This document shows positions 23,235 through 58,482 of a stretch of DNA of 64,000 nt, piece by piece (positions within the stretch are counted from its first letter, which is position 1; the number at the start of each line of letters is the position of its first letter). Source of the stretch: Mobula birostris (lineage: Eukaryota); the NCBI RefSeq assembly GCF_030028105.1, contig NC_092382.1:88452533-88516532 (forward strand). The letters run 5' to 3'. The notes under the pieces were generated by a model that did not search any database, was not told the origin of the DNA, and worked only from the letters and a program-made list of their open reading frames with translations. The translations under genes and the position numbers were made by a program.

Positions 23235-23590
23235 TGTCACATTGAGATGGTAGTGGACCCAAATGCAAGACACAGACACTGAAGTACTAGGAACAGGACA
23301 AGGATGCAGGACCTGGGCTGAGACCTGGACAAGAAACAGGGAAACCGGACAAGGAACTATGAACTCGTAGCCTGGGCTAGGGAGAGCGGGACCACGACTA
23401 GAAACTATGAACTAGGAGACAAGGCTTGGACTCCGAGCCAGAGACTGGACAAGGACACAGAACCTGGGTCTTGCCTCGGGCTCGGACCCCAGAACCAGGC
23501 AAGGACATGACATGGCTACCAGACAGGACGTGGCTGGGGTCTTTGCTCTTGAGGCTTGGGCCTGGGGTCTTGGCTCTTGAACTTTGAGAC
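23235..23590 (-). mobile_element. Probable LTR fragment nested in the hAT relic
   Basis: Starts tgtcac...ggacccaaatgcaagacac with short internal repeats, as in fish Gypsy LTR ends. Confidence 0.4.
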
Positions 23591-23971
23591 AGGCTGGGGT
23601 CTGGGGTCTGGGCTCTGGAGGCTGCGGGCCGGGGTCTGGGCTCTGGAGGCTGCGGGCCGGTGTCTGGGCTCCCGAGGCTGCAGGCCGGGGTCTTAGGTCT
23701 CGAGGCTGCAGACTGGGGTCTAGGCTTCCGAGGCTGCAGGCTGGGGTCTTGGGTCTCGAGGCTGCAGACTGGGGTCTTGGGTCCCGAGGCTGCCGGCCGG
23801 GCTCTAGGCTCTGGAGGCTGCAGGCCGGGGTCTGGGCTCTCAAGGCTGCAGGCCGGGGTCTGCGCTCTCGAGGCTGCAGGCCAGGGTCTGGGCTCTCGCG
23901 GCTGCAGGCCGGGGTTTTGGGTCCCGAGGCTGCAGGCTGGGGTCTAGGCTCTCGAGGCTGCAGGCCTGGGC
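23590..23971. repeat. GC-rich minisatellite, 28-bp unit, about 13 copies
   Basis: Unit approximately ggggtctgggctctcgaggctgcaggcc. Confidence 0.9.
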
Positions 23972-24961
23972 TAAAACCTCTACTCTTCTTGTTGCCATGT
24001 TAGCTGACAATGGCACCGTCTTTAATAGCTCCACAACCGTTTGGTTTTCTCATCATGAGTTAAAACTTCGCCAACTGTATCAATTGCACACGTTTCAATC
24101 AACTCGGCATCAGCGAATGGCTTCTTAGCTTTGGCAAGATCCCATGACACATGCAATGATGCAGCTGTTGTGCTCTCTTGTGCAGATGTTGACTTATAGC
24201 TGGTAGAAATGGAGTGCTTTATGCTGTTATTATATTTGTGATGTTTTGTTAGTGTTGATCTGATTTTGCAGGGTATTTGGCATTGAAACTGGCGGCATGT
24301 GTAGTGTTGAAGTGCTGCTTCAGATTTTCTGTTTTGCTGACAGCTACGGCAGCGGCGGATCTACTGACCATCGTGTTTGCGGTGATATTGTGGCCGTTCA
24401 GTTATTATTACCTCCCCGAGACTTTCCTGGACATCACCCCTGGGTGCAGTGTGATCTCTGCCCTGGTACAGGCAGCCACAGAAATTTCTGTCTGGTTCAC
24501 CGTCACTTTTACTTTTGATCGGTTTGTCGCCATTTGTTGCCAGAAGCGGAAAATAAAATATTGCACCCGGAAAACTACGGCTGTGGTTCTGACAACAACC
24601 GGCGTTCTGCTCTGCTTTAATAATGTGCCCTTCTTCTTTATATATCATCCTGTGAAAGTGGTTGACAATATACCCTGGGACTGTATTGAAATACCGGGTG
24701 GGTGGGATATGACCGGCTTTCTACCGTCCTCACACCATTACTCCCGTTCAACGCCCTGACAGTCAGACACATTTTGGTGACTAATCGTGTCCGTAAGGTG
24801 CTGAGGGGTCAGAGCAAGGCGGAGAACCGCAGTGACCCGGAGATGGGGAGCAGGAGGAGGTCTGTGATCTTACTTCTCACCATCTCCGGAAGCTTCACCA
24901 TCCCGTGGTCGGTGAATGTTGCCAAATTCCTTTATTACACCATTGCCGGACTGGATCCAAG

Positions 24962-27900
24962 TGTAAGGTGTTTCTTCTTTGTTATGTTATAATTGAAATG
25001 GCTTGTTTATTATGTTAACTGCTGAGAAAGTCCTCCCGCTAGCAGTTTGTTTGGATTATGTTACAGATAAGAGGGTGAACAAACCAATTGGGATAGATGT
25101 TATTCTTTCTGTGTGTCTGTAAGTTATTGTGATGGGTGGGTTTTTGGGAGAAGGTGGGAGAGAGAGACAGAGGATGGACAAGGTGCTGTGAGCCCGCTAA
25201 CAGGGTCGGACCCCACGCAGGAGTCCGAGGTCCAGGGTGTTCGGCGAGGAGACAGAGACGGACTCGTGTGGCGCGTCTGGTCGACCATTGTTGTTGGTCC
25301 CAGGCGGCAGGTTGAGGTGGTCCGAGGGAAGACGCAGGGTGAAGAAGGAGGGTCCTGAGGTCCAACTGTTTGTGCACGAAGAGATTGAACTTTGATAGGT
25401 GTGGTGCCTTTTATTTTCCTTTTGTATTTTATTCCCTATTATTAATTATATAGTTCCAGTAATATCTGTAAAACTGTAATTCATTTAATCGTATCTGGTG
25501 TACTGTGTCATTTGGGCGGGGTGGGGTACGTCACACCGCATCCACACAAACTAATTACCCAGTTTGGCAGGGCCGAGGGCTGTTTCCCTAGACGACCGCG
25601 AGCTGAGCGACCGTGAGGCTGGCCATGGGGGCTACATTTGGGGGCTCGTCCGGGATTTGAACCCGGGACCTGTCGCACCCCACCAGCTTCTTCCACCCTG
25701 ACCTGAAAAGCAGCAGGTAAAGGATGTTCAGCCTCTGGTTTTTTTCTTCCTGATGACTTCTTTTTGGTCAACTTTCAGTTTTTCCACTTCATTTAAACTG
25801 TCGATAGTATCTTTTCCGAGGTCTGTTCTCCTTTGCTTCATCTCCTGTGGAGTGTAGTCAAACTCCCCTCTCTGGGCTCTCGGTTTTCTGTTCGTCTTAG
25901 TCAGACCACTTCCTTGATCTTCCCCAACTTGTAAGTCTTCCAATCTTTTCTGGATTAATTCATCAGTACATGACCACAGTGTCGGCTCGGAATTCCGTTT
26001 CTCCTCATGGTCTCTCCTCCAACTCCCCACCAAAAGCCCCTGGTTCCCAGCCATATGTTCTATCAACAGGAAATTCAACTGGTTTGTCCGGTCATTTTTC
26101 TCACATTGCACCAAACTCCGCCAGCTAGTCCTGCAGACACAGAAGACTGTTATGGGAGAAGTACTTTGTTCATTATGGCCTCCCCCGGTAGATCCATAGT
26201 GATCAGTCACGGGACTGCGAGAGCAGACTTATCCATGAATTACTGGGTATGCTTGGGTTTGAGAAATCCAGGACCACCCCCTATCACCCGCAAGGTGATC
26301 CTCAGCCCGAGAGGTTTAACCGGACCCTGCTGGACATGCTCGGCACTGTGGCGATCGGTCAGAAGAGTAAGTGGAGTCAGCACATCGGCCATTTGGTTCA
26401 CTGTTACAATTGTACTCGCAATGACCCTACGGGGTACTCGCCTTATTATCTGATGTTCGGGCGGGAAGCGAAGTTGCCCATTGACCTGTGTTTTGGGACT
26501 GAAGCGGGTGAATTACCTTTGAAGCCATATCTGAAGTATGTGTCCGATATAAGGAGAGAGTTGAAAAGGGCGTACGAGTTGGCTGAGACAGCGGCCACCA
26601 AGCAGAATTAGAGGAAAAAGAAGAGGTATGATCAGAAAGTAAAATTCTCCCAACTATTGCCGGGAGAGCGGGACTTTATCCGGGATTTAGGACTACCTGG
26701 TAAGCACAAGCTGGCGGATCGCTGGGCGGCCACCCCCTATGTGGTAGAGAGCCAGATGCCGAATCTACCTGTTTACCGGGTGAGACCCGATGATGGGAAG
26801 GGGCCTGTCAATGTACTCCATCGGAACCACTTGTTGCCTCTGGGTCCAGAGGTGAAGGTAGACCCAGAGCCCGACTGGGAGTTTACGGCTAGTATGAGGA
26901 CTCTGCAAGGGCGCAGGGCGAGGGAAGAGCCCGCTGCGAAAGGGACAGGGCCGGTCCCCACCCGGAAAAGGGATACGTCATCGGAAGACGATAATTCGGT
27001 CGTGTGGCACCTCTTTCCGTTCACTGATTCCCCGGTACCGGAAAAAGAGGCTCCTGGCCCTTCCCCCACTGAGTTAGGGGAGAGGAGGGAGGGTGCTGAG
27101 GAGCCACCTGAAATACAGCCGGCATTGGGGAAAGAGAGGGTGAAACCAGAGCCCGAGGCAGAGGGCTCTCAGGTGCCGAGTGGTCCCAGTGAGGGTGAGG
27201 GTCCGACAGGTAGGCCCGGGGTGTCACCTGTGGAGTCTGAGCCGGAAGAGTCAGCTGAGGAGGTACAGAGGTCTCAGAGGAGTAGGCGTGGAGTTGACCT
27301 ATACAGTGCCAGGAGAACAGGGTGTGATCTCTACAACCCTGGGAAGTTATGTCACTGCTTTATGCACCTCGGTTGGGTTTTGTGTTTTGTAAGGAGAAAT
27401 GGTGAACTCTGTTAAAGTCATGAGGACATGACTTTTATTTGGTGGAGAAGAGTGTAAGGCGTTTCTTCTTTGTTATGTTATAATTGAAATGGCTTCTTTG
27501 TTATAACTGCTGAGAAAGTCCTCCCGCTAGCAGTTTATTTGGATTACGTACAGATCAGAGGGTGAACAAACCAATTGGGATAGATGTTATTCTTTCTGTG
27601 TGTCTGTAAGTTATTGTGATGCGGGTTTTTGGGAGAAGGCGGGAGAGAGAGACAGAGGATGGACAAGCTGCTGTGAGTCTGCTAACAGGGTCGAACCCCG
27701 CGCAGCAGTCCGAGGTCCAGGGTGTTCAGCGAGGAGAGGAGACGGACACGTGTGGAGCGTCTAGTCGACCATCGTTGTTGGTCCCAGGCGGCAGGTCGAG
27801 GTGGTCCGAGGGGAGACGCAGGGTGAACGAGGAGGGTCCTGAGCTCCAACTGTTTGTACGCTAAGAGATAGAACTTTGATAGGTGTGGTGCCTTTTATTT

Positions 27901-28120
27901 TCCTTTTATATTTTATTCTCTATTAATTATATAGTTCCAGTAATATCTATAAAACTGTAATTCATTTAATCGTATCTGGTGTATTGTCTGTTATTTGGGT
28001 GGGGTCGGGTACATCACACAGCATCCACACAAACCAATCATCTAGTTTGGCGGGGCTGAGGGCTGTTTCCCCAGATGACGGCGAGCTGAGCGACCCTGAG
28101 GCTGGCCAGGCGGGGCTACA
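24962..28120 (+). mobile_element. Non-autonomous Ty3/Gypsy LTR element: LTRs 24962-25636 and 27453-28120, integrase remnant about 26146-27290
   Basis: Paired TGTAAG...GCTACA LTRs, PBS, PPT ggtggagaagag (27441-27452), IHSDQ..TTPYHPQGDPQPERFNRTL integrase core, imperfect 4-bp TSD caag/caaa. Confidence 0.92.
25639..25682 (-). other. Extended PBS: antisense copy of the tRNA-Pro 3' half
   Basis: tgggggctcgtccgggatttgaacccgggacctgtcgcaccc is complementary to tRNA-Pro from CCA to the anticodon, with 1 mismatch at 25672. Confidence 0.9.
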
Positions 28121-28889
28121 CAAATAATTAAAATGATTCTGATCACATTTTTCAACACACCGGAGACATGCTGATGATATTATGTTGTTGCACAAACACG
28201 TTTATTTATGGAGTAAAGCAGTCCAAGTTCAGAGAGCAGTTCATCAGCGCAGCAAAATATCCGCTCACATCAATTATTCAACTAATTAACAGATAACATA
28301 TCTAAGCTCTTCTCGGCGGCGGTCGCAATGTTTTCGATCTTGACTCTACAGAACCAGCGGTAATCGGAGAACGTGGCAGCGGGGGAGAGTAAATCTGGTT
28401 TAGCACCCGAGAGAAACACAGCACAGGAACAGACTCTCCGACACCCGCACCCCGCCACCTCCTCTCCTACCGATTATTATGCTCATCCTACCTTTTATTT
28501 TCAGCTTTCCACCATATTCCCGCACTCGTCACCGCCAGACCCTTCTCGGTCTGAGAAAGCCAGACAGGTTCTGGGGACATTCAGGACCAAATCGGCAAAA
28601 ATGCCACTCATTTCCTACTTTAGTCTTTTGCATAAAAATTAAATTGGAAAAAAAAGGCCAACACGAACTTACAGTAAAGCTTGCACTTGTCCATCACATT
28701 AGACAAAAATGTTATGGAGGAATGTTTAACACCACAGCACTGATTCCCAATTGCGTGATTTTTTTTTACCGAAACCACCGATGCCTACTCTGCTTCGAGG
28801 AAAATAATGACATCTCACTTCCAGATTTCTAATAAATTTCCATCCGACTTCCCTCTACATTCACTCCAGTAGAATTGCACGTTTCCTAT

Positions 28890-55278: not shown

Positions 55279-57888
55279 ATAGAAACATAGAAACATAGAA
55301 AATAGGTGCAGGAGTAGGCCATTCGGCCCTTTGAGCCTGCACCGCCATTTATTATGATCATGGCTGATCATCCAACTCAGAACCCCGCCCCAGCCTTCCC
55401 TCCATATCCCCTGATCCCCGTAGCCACAAGGGCCATATCTAACTCCCTCTTAAGTATAGCCAATGAACTGGCCTCAACTGTTTCCTGTGGCAGAGGATTC
55501 CACAGATTCACCACTCTCTGTGTGAAGAAGTTTTTCCTAATCTCGGTCCTAAAAGGCTTCCCCTCTATCCTCAAACTGTGGCCCCTCATTCTGGACTTCC
55601 CCAACATCGGGAACAATCTTCCTGCATCTAGCCTGTCCAATCCCTTTAGGATTTTATACGTTTCAATCAGATCCCCCCTCAATCTTCTAAATTCCAACGA
55701 GTACAAGCCCAGTTCATCCAGTCTTTCTTCATATGAAAGTCCTGCCATCCCAGGAATCAATCTGGTGAACCTTCTTTGTACTCCCTCTATGGCAAGGATG
55801 TCTTTCCTCAGATTAGGGGACCAAAACTGCACACAATACTCCAGGTGTGGTCTCACCAAGGCCTTGTACAACTACAGTAGTACCTCCCTGCTCCTGTACT
55901 CGATTCCTCTCGCTATAAATGCCAGCATACCATTCGCCTTTTTCACCGCCTGCTGTACCTGCATGCCCACTTTCAATGACTGGTGTATAATGACACCCAG
56001 GTCTCGTTGCACCTCCCCTTTTCCTAATCGGCCACCATTCAGATAATAATCTGTTTTCCTATTTTTGCCACCAAAGTGGATAACTTCACATTTATCCACA
56101 TTAAATTGCATCTGCCATGAATTTGCCCACTCACCCAACCTATCCAAGTCACTCTGCATCCTCTTAGCATTCTCCTCACAACCAACACCACCACCCAGCT
56201 TCGTGTCATCCGCAAACTTGGAGATGCTGCATTTAATTCTCTCATCCAAGTCATTAATATATATTGTAAACAACTGGGGTCCCAGCACTGAGCCTTGCGG
56301 TACCCCACTAGTCACCGCCTGCCATTCTGAAAAGGTCCCGTTTATTCCCACTCTTTGCTTCCTGTCTGCTAACCAATTCTCCACCCACACCAATACCTTA
56401 CCCCCAATACCGTGTGCTTTAAGTTTGCACACTAATCTCCTGTGTGGGACCTTGTCAAAAGCCTTTTGAAAATCCAAATATACCACATCCACTGGTTCTT
56501 CCCTATCCACTCTACTAGTTACATCCTCAAAAAATTCTATGAGGTTCGTCAGACATGATTTTCCTTTCACAAATCCATGCTGACTTTGTCCGATCATTTC
56601 ACCGCTTTCCAAATTTGCTGTTATTACATCCTTGATAACTGACTCCAGCAGTTTCCCCACCACCAACGTTAGGCTAACCGGTCTATAATTCCCCGGTTTC
56701 TCTCTCCCTCCTTTTTTAAAAAGTGGGGTCATATTAGCCACTCTCCAATCCTCAGGAACTAGTCCAGAATCTAACGAGTTTTGAAAAATTATCACTAATG
56801 CATCCACTATTTCTTGGGCTACTTCCTTAAGCACTCTAGGATGCAGACCATCTGGCCCTGGGGTTTTATCTGCCTTCACTTCCTTCAATTTACCTAACAC
56901 CACTTCCCTACTAACATGTATTTCGCTCAGTTCCTCCATCTCACTGGACCCTCTGTCCCCTACTATTTCTGGAATATTATTTATGTCTTCCTTAGTGAAG
57001 ACAGAACCAAAGTAATTATTCAATTGGTCTGCCATGTCCTTGCTCCCCATAATCAATTCACCTGTTTCTGTCTGCAGGGTACCTACATTTGTCTTTACCA
57101 GTTTTTTCCTTTTTACATATCTATAAAAGCTTTTACAGTCCGTTTTTATGTTCCCTGCCAGTTTTCTCTCATAATCTTCTTTCCCCTTCCTAATTAAGCC
57201 CTTTGTCCTCCTCTGCTGAACTCTGAATTTCTCCCAGTCCTCAGGTGAGCCACTTTCTCTGGCTAATTTGTATGCTTCTTCTTTGGAATTGATACTATCC
57301 CTAATTTTTCTTGTCAGCCACGGATGCACTACCTTCCTTGATTTATTCTTTTGCCAAACTGGGATGAACAATTGTTGTAGTTCATCCATGCAACCTTTAA
57401 ATGCTTGCCATTGCATATCCACCGTCAATCCCTTAAGTGTCATTTGCCAGTCTATCTTAGCTAATTCACGTCTCATACCTTCAAAGTTACCCCTCTTTAA
57501 GTTCAGAACCTTTGTTTCTGAATTAACTATGTCACTCTCCATCTTAATGAAGAATTCCACCATATTATGGTCACTCTTACCCAAGGGGCCTCTCACGACA
57601 AGATTGCTAATTAACCCTTCCTCATTGCTCAGAACCCAGTCCAGAATAGCCTGCTCTCTAGTTGGTTCCTCGACATGTTGGTTCAAGAAACCATCCCGCA
57701 TACATTCCAAGAAATCCTCTTCCTCAGCACCTTTACCAATTTGGTTCACCCAATCTACATGTAGATTGAAGTCACCCATTATAACTGCTGTTCCTTTATT
57801 GCACACATTTCTAATTTCCTGTTTAATACCATCTCCGACCTCACTACTACTGTTAGGTGGCCTGTACACAACTCCCACCAGCATCTTC
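55279..57888 (-). mobile_element. Young 5'-truncated CR1; ORF2 (partial APE plus RT) broken by one in-frame stop
   Basis: ORFs 55872-57884 and 55377-55871 share a frame across a single TAG; FADD; (ttctatgt)n tail; tgtttc on both flanks. Confidence 0.95.
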
Positions 57889-58482
57889 TGTTTCGAGGTA
57901 TATAACCCTATTAATGCAAGAAGGAAGCCTTTTCTGTTTTTCTGGGCTTCTGAAACATTTGTACACTTCAGTTAAATATCCCTCCAGAAGTTCCAGAGGA
58001 GAAGCTCAGTCTGTCTAATATTTCCACACAATTAAAGTAGGGAATTGTTTATTATTGTCATGTACCAAGGTTTAATGAAAATCTTGTCCTGCATTCCCTC
58101 CTCTCAGATCAACACATTACAACAGTAGAAAATGATAATTCATTAACAGAGTGTAACAAAGCATTATGGTCACAGAGAAAATCCACTGCAGGTAGACATA
58201 TGGTGCAAGGTCACATTGAGTTACATTATGAAGTCAAGGTTCCATCTTATAATACTGAGGAATATTCAGTTTGTTTATAACAGCAGAATGGAAACTGTCC
58301 CAAGCCTAGGAATCTTTAATTATGTTGTCTGATTTACTGAGGCGGCAGGAAGTATAAAGAGAGTCCATGGAGGGGAGGCTTGTTTCCATGATGTGTCCAC
58401 AGTGCTCTTCTATTTCTTGAAGTCAAAAGAAGAGAGTAACCGTACAAAGGTGTGAAGTATCTGGATGGGATACTTTTCATGG

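What the first reader, a model, noticed from the sequence alone, without database searches (positions are those of the whole stretch)
25639..25682. Gypsy PBS extended into a 42-44 nt cDNA of the primer tRNA-Pro, possibly recording inosine-34
Seen: complementarity to tRNA-Pro does not stop at 18 nt but runs through the T-arm, variable loop and anticodon stem to the anticodon GG (42 nt, 1 mismatch). The next two bases, C and A, fit position 34 read as G and U33. Known: plus-strand strong-stop synthesis normally halts at m1A58; tRNA-Pro(AGG) carries I34, which RT reads as G, and eukaryotes generally lack Pro(GGG) genes. Inference: a fossil of RT read-through of a mature (CCA-bearing) primer past m1A58 and m1G37, followed by an aberrant strand transfer. 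The inosine inference rests on only 2 nt.
Basis: partly seen in the sequence, partly recalled or inferred. Interest (0 to 1): 0.7.

Follow-up and report, generated by a model that had tools for sequence, protein, structure and literature searches.

The report
Retrotransposon fossil of over-copied primer tRNA
A dead jumping gene, likely from a ray, carries a backwards copy of about half of the tRNA that primes its copying, joined to a flipped piece of a sister element, likely because reverse transcriptase overran its stop and jumped templates; whether it records the tRNA's inosine cannot be read from this copy.

Summary
The tract is real. Two bases after the 5' LTR of an integrated Gypsy element, the match to tRNA-Pro (reference recalled) runs 42 nt with one mismatch. 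The element has lost gag-PR-RT. After the tRNA copy come about 450 nt in reverse orientation from a high-copy sister element (decayed pol carrying a captured myosin piece), 21 unassigned bases, then half an integrase. The donor's homology reaches back to 25676, so only 37 nt (tRNA 76 to 40) are surely tRNA; positions 39-35, and the two 'inosine' bases, lie in a 5-7 nt overlap. The base read as I34 is also required by a donor glycine (11 of 11 donors), and a paper reports RT putting C opposite position 34 of a primer it assigns to Pro-UGG. The chance that position 34 was copied spans 0.00-0.86 with the assumptions, so inosine and m1G37 read-through are undecided. Best reading: over-extended plus-strand DNA rescued by two template switches. 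Single event versus subfamily is untested. Over-extension is known in vitro; earlier unreviewed notes of this scan report similar over-copies in three other genomes.

The parts
24259..24957 (+). Host GPCR (7tm_1) pseudogene, 5' part; insertion target
   Evidence: Pfam 7tm_1 E 8e-6; frame read to the LTR
24958..24961 (.). Left copy of 4-bp target-site duplication (3 of 4 match the right copy)
   Evidence: a 4-bp duplication keeps the GPCR frame across the element
24962..25636 (+). 5' LTR, TG...CA
   Evidence: self-blast; 49 differences in 665 aligned positions to the 3' LTR, K2P 0.078
25639..25656 (+). Canonical 18-nt primer-binding site for tRNA-Pro (positions 76-59), after a 2-nt spacer
   Evidence: same type of site in relatives L001, L008; tRNA identity recalled
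25657..25675 (+). Over-copied primer: complement of tRNA-Pro positions 58-40, 18 of 19 matching; no other source found
   Evidence: donor homology ends at 25676
25676..25682 (+). Junction overlap: fits tRNA 39-35 (5 nt; 7 nt if 34 is read as G) and also the donor's Gly-Gly-Val codons on the minus strand
   Evidence: codon map; donor proteins; chance overlap of 5 or more p 0.005
25676..26126 (-). Reverse-oriented piece of a non-autonomous sister Gypsy element: RNase H remnant then captured sarcomeric myosin heavy chain sequence, with internal deletions and a frameshift
   Evidence: high-copy in related genomes
26127..26147 (.). 21 unassigned bases between donor and integrase
   Evidence: best other match 14 of 21 in the window, 14-15 of 21 in L001 and L008
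26148..27425 (+). C-terminal half of Gypsy integrase, with stops and a frameshift
   Evidence: 89% to Mobula P0007 over 139 aa; tblastn; 51, 50 and 41 contigs in three runs leave the window sequence at 26148
27441..27452 (+). Polypurine tract
27453..28120 (+). 3' LTR
28121..28124 (.). Right copy of the target-site duplication; the GPCR pseudogene continues to about 28300
   Evidence: weak 7TM hit E 0.013

Best explanation
This is an integrated, dead Gypsy element whose plus strand likely overran the normal stop in its tRNA-Pro primer, copied it to at least position 40, and was likely rescued by two template switches. Shown: intact LTR pair, PPT, frame-keeping 4-bp duplication, a 37-nt sure tRNA copy at the primer site, a 5-7 nt overlap with a reverse-oriented piece of a sister element, 21 filler bases, and a jump into mid-integrase that drops gag-PR-RT-RH. 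Inferred: (1) the primer lacked or was read through m1A58 (copied without error); (2) the over-long 3' end could not complete normal second-strand transfer; (3) it paired by microhomology with a co-packaged RNA of the non-autonomous, myosin-carrying sister family and copied about 450 nt of it, which is why tRNA and donor are both antisense on the plus strand; (4) it then joined the minus-strand DNA inside integrase, giving a two-LTR product that integrase inserted in the germ line. Where RT left the tRNA (40 to 33) is undecided.
For: Element anatomy. Donor identity and orientation. Seven donor proteins give a tblastn segment ending exactly at 25676 (P0001, P0003, P0006; P0128, P0129, P0131, P0132), and 11 of 11 donors holding the region run on uninterrupted past it (12 examined, P0005 lacks it). 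Overlap of 5 or more nt has chance 0.005. The family normally has integrase upstream of 26148 (P0007; contigs leaving there). Of 15 related loci examined (of 70 fetched), 9 show a primer site after an LTR end; the two Pro-type ones run 21 and 17 nt, and none reaches the variable loop (by eye). HIV-1 RT makes minor plus-strand products ending in the anticodon loop (PMC13191261 section 10). Switches in LTR-mediated capture show median 6-bp microsimilarity and sometimes 2-26 bp de novo sequence (PMC5131818 passages).
Against: One locus; no genome was held, so the primer sites of this family in this species were not seen. The tRNA-Pro reference is recalled. The donor's DNA at the junction is known only through proteins of other rays, so wobble bases are not fixed. 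The same product could arise on the minus strand. The papers read say products extended this far cannot transfer or integrate, so a rescue must be assumed. Co-packaging of the sister RNA is inferred; its LTRs and primer site were not seen.
Confidence: 0.6

Rival explanations
1. Same over-copy, but the donor piece was gained on the minus strand: RT left its own RNA in integrase, copied the sister's nascent cDNA (or an antisense transcript), and this truncated minus strand annealed to the over-long plus strand by the 5-7 nt overlap.
For: Gives the identical product; explains the large deletion as a short minus strand; inter-molecular plus-strand transfer is proposed for HIV-1 proviruses (PMC9278108 passages).
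Against: Needs a single-stranded sister cDNA or antisense RNA as template; an RNA-to-RNA jump from tRNA to a sense sister RNA needs neither.
Confidence: 0.22
2. The primer was a 3' tRNA half cut in the anticodon loop, so RT ran off the template end near position 35-33 and then jumped by microhomology (a sub-case of either route, not exclusive).
For: Would explain an end inside the anticodon loop, error-free copying of A58 and a long overlap; the overlap model leans to ends past G37 when junctions are homology-selected.
Against: No direct evidence; HTLV-1 was found to use full-length tRNA-Pro (PMC11251516 passages); a stop before m1G37 is equally allowed.
Confidence: 0.15
3. Two events: an older over-copy, then a sister element nested in reverse and later deletions removed most of both.
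For: The insert has internal deletions against donors and the element is old (7.4% LTR divergence).
Against: No donor LTR or second target duplication is left; one breakpoint would have to fall exactly at the end of the tRNA copy with a 5-nt overlap.
Confidence: 0.1
4. The long tract is a trait of the whole family or of a propagated subfamily, not a one-off slip at this locus.
For: An unreviewed note of this scan reports about 500 copies of an over-long site in another genome (e1-10321918); a long site would be inherited if the element were recopied; 39, 49, 10 and 46 contigs ran over the ends of the stretch laid, letters not shown.
Against: Related elements have 17-21 nt Pro sites; no listed contig bridges donor and integrase, though most rows were not shown; the leader that usually holds the packaging signal is gone (recalled knowledge).
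Confidence: 0.12
5. A tRNA-derived SINE or processed tRNA pseudogene inserted here by chance.
For: The tract is tRNA-like and the genome is repeat-rich.
Against: It begins with the CCA complement exactly at the primer-site position; no 5' tRNA half, body, tail or own duplication; no second copy in 64 kb; ARAGORN finds no gene.
Confidence: 0.02

Closest known systems
Over-extended plus-strand strong-stop DNA of HIV-1 (products P1 and P5; PMC13191261 section 10 read; PMC8599865 passages)
   Same: RT copies the primer past A58, with a minor stop in the anticodon loop at position 37.
   Different: Described in vitro or in TRMT6 mutants and as unable to transfer or integrate; here a Gypsy product of that length is integrated with both LTRs in a germ line.
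Strand-transfer deletion mutants of spleen necrosis virus vectors (Pulsinelli and Temin 1991; only the title seen in a reference list; text not held; content recalled)
   Same: Large deletions starting at the primer site through faulty plus-strand termination, recalled as sometimes taking in cellular sequence.
   Different: Cell-culture retrovirus; here a natural retrotransposon fossil with an identified inverted donor. I could not check whether that paper already shows tRNA copied this far.
LTR-mediated retrocopies of animals (Tan et al. 2016, PMC5131818; 12 passages read)
   Same: Internal ORFs replaced by a foreign RNA piece between two LTRs; microsimilarity at one joint, short de novo sequence at the other.
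   Different: The switch partner is the tRNA primer itself, the insert is reverse-oriented, and the donor is a sister retroelement (itself an LTR-mediated capture of myosin sequence).
Fish and ray Ty3/Gypsy elements with PNMA-type gag and RT-RH-IN order (P0007, P0008, P0012, P0042)
   Same: Integrase 89% and 82% identical to Mobula and Hypanus proteins; TG...CA LTRs; Pro-type primer site as in L001 and L008.
   Different: gag, protease, RT, RNase H and the integrase N-terminus are missing; primer site 37-44 nt against 17-21 nt.

Membership tests
Ty3/Gypsy LTR retrotransposon copy | Paired direct LTRs with TG...CA ends | tested here: met
   24962-25636 and 27453-28120, 92.6% alike
Ty3/Gypsy LTR retrotransposon copy | Primer site next to 5' LTR and PPT next to 3' LTR | tested here: met
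Ty3/Gypsy LTR retrotransposon copy | Short target-site duplication | tested here: met
   4 bp, 3 of 4 matching; keeps the host GPCR frame
Ty3/Gypsy LTR retrotransposon copy | Gypsy-type integrase | tested here: met
Ty3/Gypsy LTR retrotransposon copy | gag-PR-RT-RH-IN complement (autonomy) | tested here: not met
   only the integrase C-half is present; a deleted derivative
Over-extended plus-strand strong-stop product | Starts at the CCA end at the primer site and stays colinear with the tRNA past position 58 | tested here: met
   25639-25675; tRNA-Pro reference recalled
Over-extended plus-strand strong-stop product | Ends at a modified base (position 37 or other) | tested here: inconclusive
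   end point lies anywhere from 40 to 33 because of the donor overlap
Over-extended plus-strand strong-stop product | Longer than the site of normal family members in the same species | not testable with these tools
   no genome held; only fish relatives seen
DNA record of inosine-34 | C opposite position 34 that can only come from the tRNA | tested here: not met
   the base is also fixed by the donor glycine, 11 of 11
DNA record of inosine-34 | C at 34 is specific for inosine | tested here: inconclusive
   PMC11251516 section 7 reports mostly C at 34 for a primer assigned to Pro-UGG; that primer could itself be the AGG tRNA of the same body (recalled)
LTR-mediated retrocopy (Tan et al. 2016) | Insert replaces internal ORFs between two LTRs, microsimilarity at joints | tested here: met
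LTR-mediated retrocopy (Tan et al. 2016) | Insert comes directly from a host mRNA | tested here: not met
   it shares the RNase H remnant and derived residues of the sister element, not native myosin
tRNA-derived SINE | 5' tRNA head without CCA, body, tail, own duplication, many copies | tested here: not met

The most novel reading that the evidence does not exclude
RT copied the germ-line primer through unmodified or bypassed m1A58 and m1G37 and through inosine-34 (read as G) to position 33, possibly the cut end of a 3' tRNA half, and used the 7-nt match to jump onto a co-packaged sister RNA; over-long plus strands are then not dead ends but a route by which LTR elements capture RNA in reverse orientation, and genomes hold countable fossils of tRNA editing and modification state.
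Probability: 0.3. Interest if true: 0.6.

Novelty: new variant of a known kind. Interest (0 to 1): 0.4.

Why it matters
The papers read treat plus-strand DNA that runs into the anticodon arm as a dead end. This locus shows such a product integrated with both LTRs, and names the RNA that likely rescued it. If such junctions are collected genome-wide, their end points (58, 55, 38, 33) and misread bases would give an in vivo map of where a retrotransposon RT stops on germ-line tRNA, and would test whether plus-strand jumps explain reverse-oriented captures. It also gives a caution: end-point bases in such fossils cannot be read as tRNA modifications until the downstream donor is identified. One copy alone cannot settle the inosine question.

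Tried and rejected
No own genome held. ARAGORN: 0 genes in the window and 0 in 39 of 70 loci scanned, so no tool-supplied tRNA-Pro reference; supplements of PMC11417395 and PMC11251516 could not be read and may hold tRNA-Pro sequences and position-37/58 modification levels that bear on the stop point. Donor scan of metagenome contigs: 72 pattern matches, 0 confirmed. Integrase scans of viral contigs: 0 of 11 and 0 of 66 confirmed. Pfam gave nothing for the donor and the ESM Atlas only generic coiled coils under 0.9; the window's own 92-aa piece had 0 PDB hits, so the myosin assignment rests on ray donor proteins. The exhaustive protein search never left the queue. No RNA holder listed for the stretch. 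Public contigs were laid only on 25681-28250, so they say nothing about the tract or its left junction. My first reading, that the insert was a host mRNA, was dropped. My early view that the overlap refutes inosine was dropped. RNA ligation of a tRNA half to donor RNA was considered and set aside because it predicts no overlap (chance 0.005). Literature searches for an integrated long tRNA copy in an LTR element and for the myosin-carrying ray element listed no paper whose title or abstract start describes either; the library lacks most subscription papers.

Full report
Setting. The window is a C2H2 zinc-finger cluster. Closest proteins for the element come from Mobula, Hypanus and Hemitrygon, so the host is likely a myliobatiform ray (inference). 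No genome was held.

The element. Self-comparison shows one LTR pair, 24962-25636 and 27453-28120, with 49 differences in 665 aligned positions (K2P 0.078). This is an upper bound on age, because an aberrant transfer could join LTRs from two templates. The flanks are two halves of one GPCR pseudogene (Pfam 7tm_1), and a 4-bp duplication (3 of 4 bases still matching) keeps its frame across the element. So the product was inserted by integrase. A polypurine tract precedes the 3' LTR. The interior is only 1.8 kb.

The observation. Two bases after the LTR the tract starts with the CCA complement and follows tRNA-Pro from position 76 to 35, 42 nt with one mismatch at 43; the next two bases are C and A. 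The tRNA-Pro sequence used is recalled; attempts to get one from a call failed. Independent support is modest: both strands of a T-stem round a 7-nt loop, and a sub-threshold alignment to the tRNA-like domain of tmRNA. One mismatch is the expected decay (1.4-1.5). A58 was copied correctly. There is no second copy in the window and no tRNA gene.

What follows the tract. The next 450 nt are homologous, on the minus strand, to multi-copy ray ORFs (3 hits, 40-57% identity; 10 hits from P0003). These are a decayed non-autonomous Gypsy derivative: RT remnant (37-55% to a full pol), RNase H remnant, a coiled coil and an integrase-tail remnant. The coiled coil is a captured piece of sarcomeric myosin heavy chain (P0003 residues 2-215 against myosin-7 915-1121, E 4e-13). 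The window's own piece had no PDB hit. In the donors this sequence is in sense with pol; here it is reversed. Contigs of three DNA-like runs and one run guessed to be RNA cover it at depths similar to the integrase (summed contig depth, not a copy number), and some leave the window sequence at 25808 and 25952, where real donor proteins hold stretches missing here. After 21 unassigned bases (26127-26147; best other match 14-15 of 21) the sequence enters integrase at 26148. There 51, 50 and 41 contigs in X1, X2 and X6 leave the window sequence, and Mobula P0007 has intact integrase upstream. So this interior is not the usual form of the family.

The junction. Seven donor proteins give a tblastn segment that ends exactly at 25676. 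On the minus strand 25684-25676 reads Gly-Gly-Val; 11 of 11 donors that hold the region have Gly-Val there and continue with Thr or Ile (12 examined, P0005 lacks it), whereas the window continues into tRNA position 40. Hence 25639-25675 (37 nt) is surely tRNA, and 25676-25680 (tRNA 39-35) is shared by both. 25681, the base read as I34, is the first base of the donor's invariant glycine; 25682 is a wobble base. An overlap of 5 or more nt arises by chance with p 0.005, of 7 or more with p 0.0004 (equal base frequencies). This is the mark of a homology-guided switch; Tan et al. report a median of 6 bp and sometimes 2-26 de novo bases (PMC5131818, 12 passages).

Inosine and m1G37. RT may have left the tRNA anywhere from 40 to 33. 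Even if 34 was copied, PMC11251516 (section 7 read) reports mostly C opposite position 34 of a primer it assigns to Pro-UGG with ncm5U; that primer might really be the AGG tRNA with the same body (recalled), so this weakens but does not remove the inference. Zebrafish tRNAs carry m1A58 in nearly all clusters and m1G37 in many, with some A58 sites varying in development (PMC11417395, 12 passages; Pro-specific values were in the unreadable supplement). Verdict: undecided, about 0.3.

Controls from relatives. Of 70 loci fetched with an integrase alignment I examined 15. Nine show a primer site after an LTR end. The two Pro-type sites run 21 nt (L001) and 17 nt (L008); six others run about 18-20 nt; L013 runs about 28 nt into the T-stem (by eye, tRNA identities recalled). 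None reaches the variable loop.

Mechanism. Most likely (0.6): plus-strand synthesis overran A58, could not complete the normal transfer, paired by microhomology with a co-packaged sister RNA and copied it (hence tRNA and donor both antisense), then joined minus-strand DNA inside integrase. The minus-strand route gives the same product (0.22). That the tract is an RT copy of the primer I put above 0.9. Rivals are listed separately; their confidences overlap and do not sum to one.

What is known. HIV-1 RT yields minor plus-strand products ending at positions 55, 54 and 37; only those ending at 58-54 are said to transfer (PMC13191261, 12 passages and section 10), and longer ones are said not to integrate (PMC8599865, 12 passages). 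Pulsinelli and Temin 1991 described deletions from strand-transfer errors (title seen in PMC9278108, 6 passages; text not held; content recalled). Ten searches listed no paper on an integrated long primer copy in an LTR retrotransposon, judged from listings. Unreviewed notes of this scan report similar over-copies in three other genomes and an LTR element with a partly reversed host insert in this genome; none was checked here. A look-up of the insert found 0 look-alike windows.

Verdict. Real feature, partly right interpretation, a new variant of known RT errors: an over-long plus strand rescued through a reverse-oriented sister RNA and integrated. The inosine record is possible but not readable from this copy. 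Interest 0.4.

Noticed in passing
window 25676-26126 (minus); proteins P0001-P0003, P0005, P0006, P0128-P0134: A non-autonomous Gypsy family in Mobula, Hypanus and Hemitrygon carries a spliced-looking piece of sarcomeric myosin heavy chain between decayed RT/RNase H and the integrase tail; many copies keep long open frames and are annotated as MYH16-like or uncharacterised genes. One literature search listed nothing on it.
   Followed up: partly
L013 about 130-160: Primer site of a distant Gypsy element runs about 28 nt, through the T-loop into the 5' strand of the T-stem (Ser-type by recall): a second, shorter over-copy.
   Followed up: no
L001 about 405-425: Pro-type primer site runs 21 nt, to tRNA position 56, like the lentiviral primer over-extension sequence; may be chance in a T-rich leader.
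   Followed up: no
window 27312-27494: A 183-nt contig with 0 differences across integrase tail, PPT and 3' LTR start in run X5 (guessed RNA) suggests the same locus is present in that organism; expression is not shown.
   Followed up: no
window 24259-28300: The element interrupts a single-exon GPCR pseudogene; its right part is itself covered by many contigs, so a multi-copy receptor family.
   Followed up: partly
window about 62516-62064 (minus): Solo LTR of a related family (66% over 183 nt) inserted in zinc-finger coding sequence, no primer site after it.
   Followed up: no
window 55872-57971 (minus): 699-aa open frame with endonuclease and RT domains of a LINE.
   Followed up: no
window 23532-23970: Imperfect tandem repeat just upstream of the GPCR pseudogene.
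   Followed up: no
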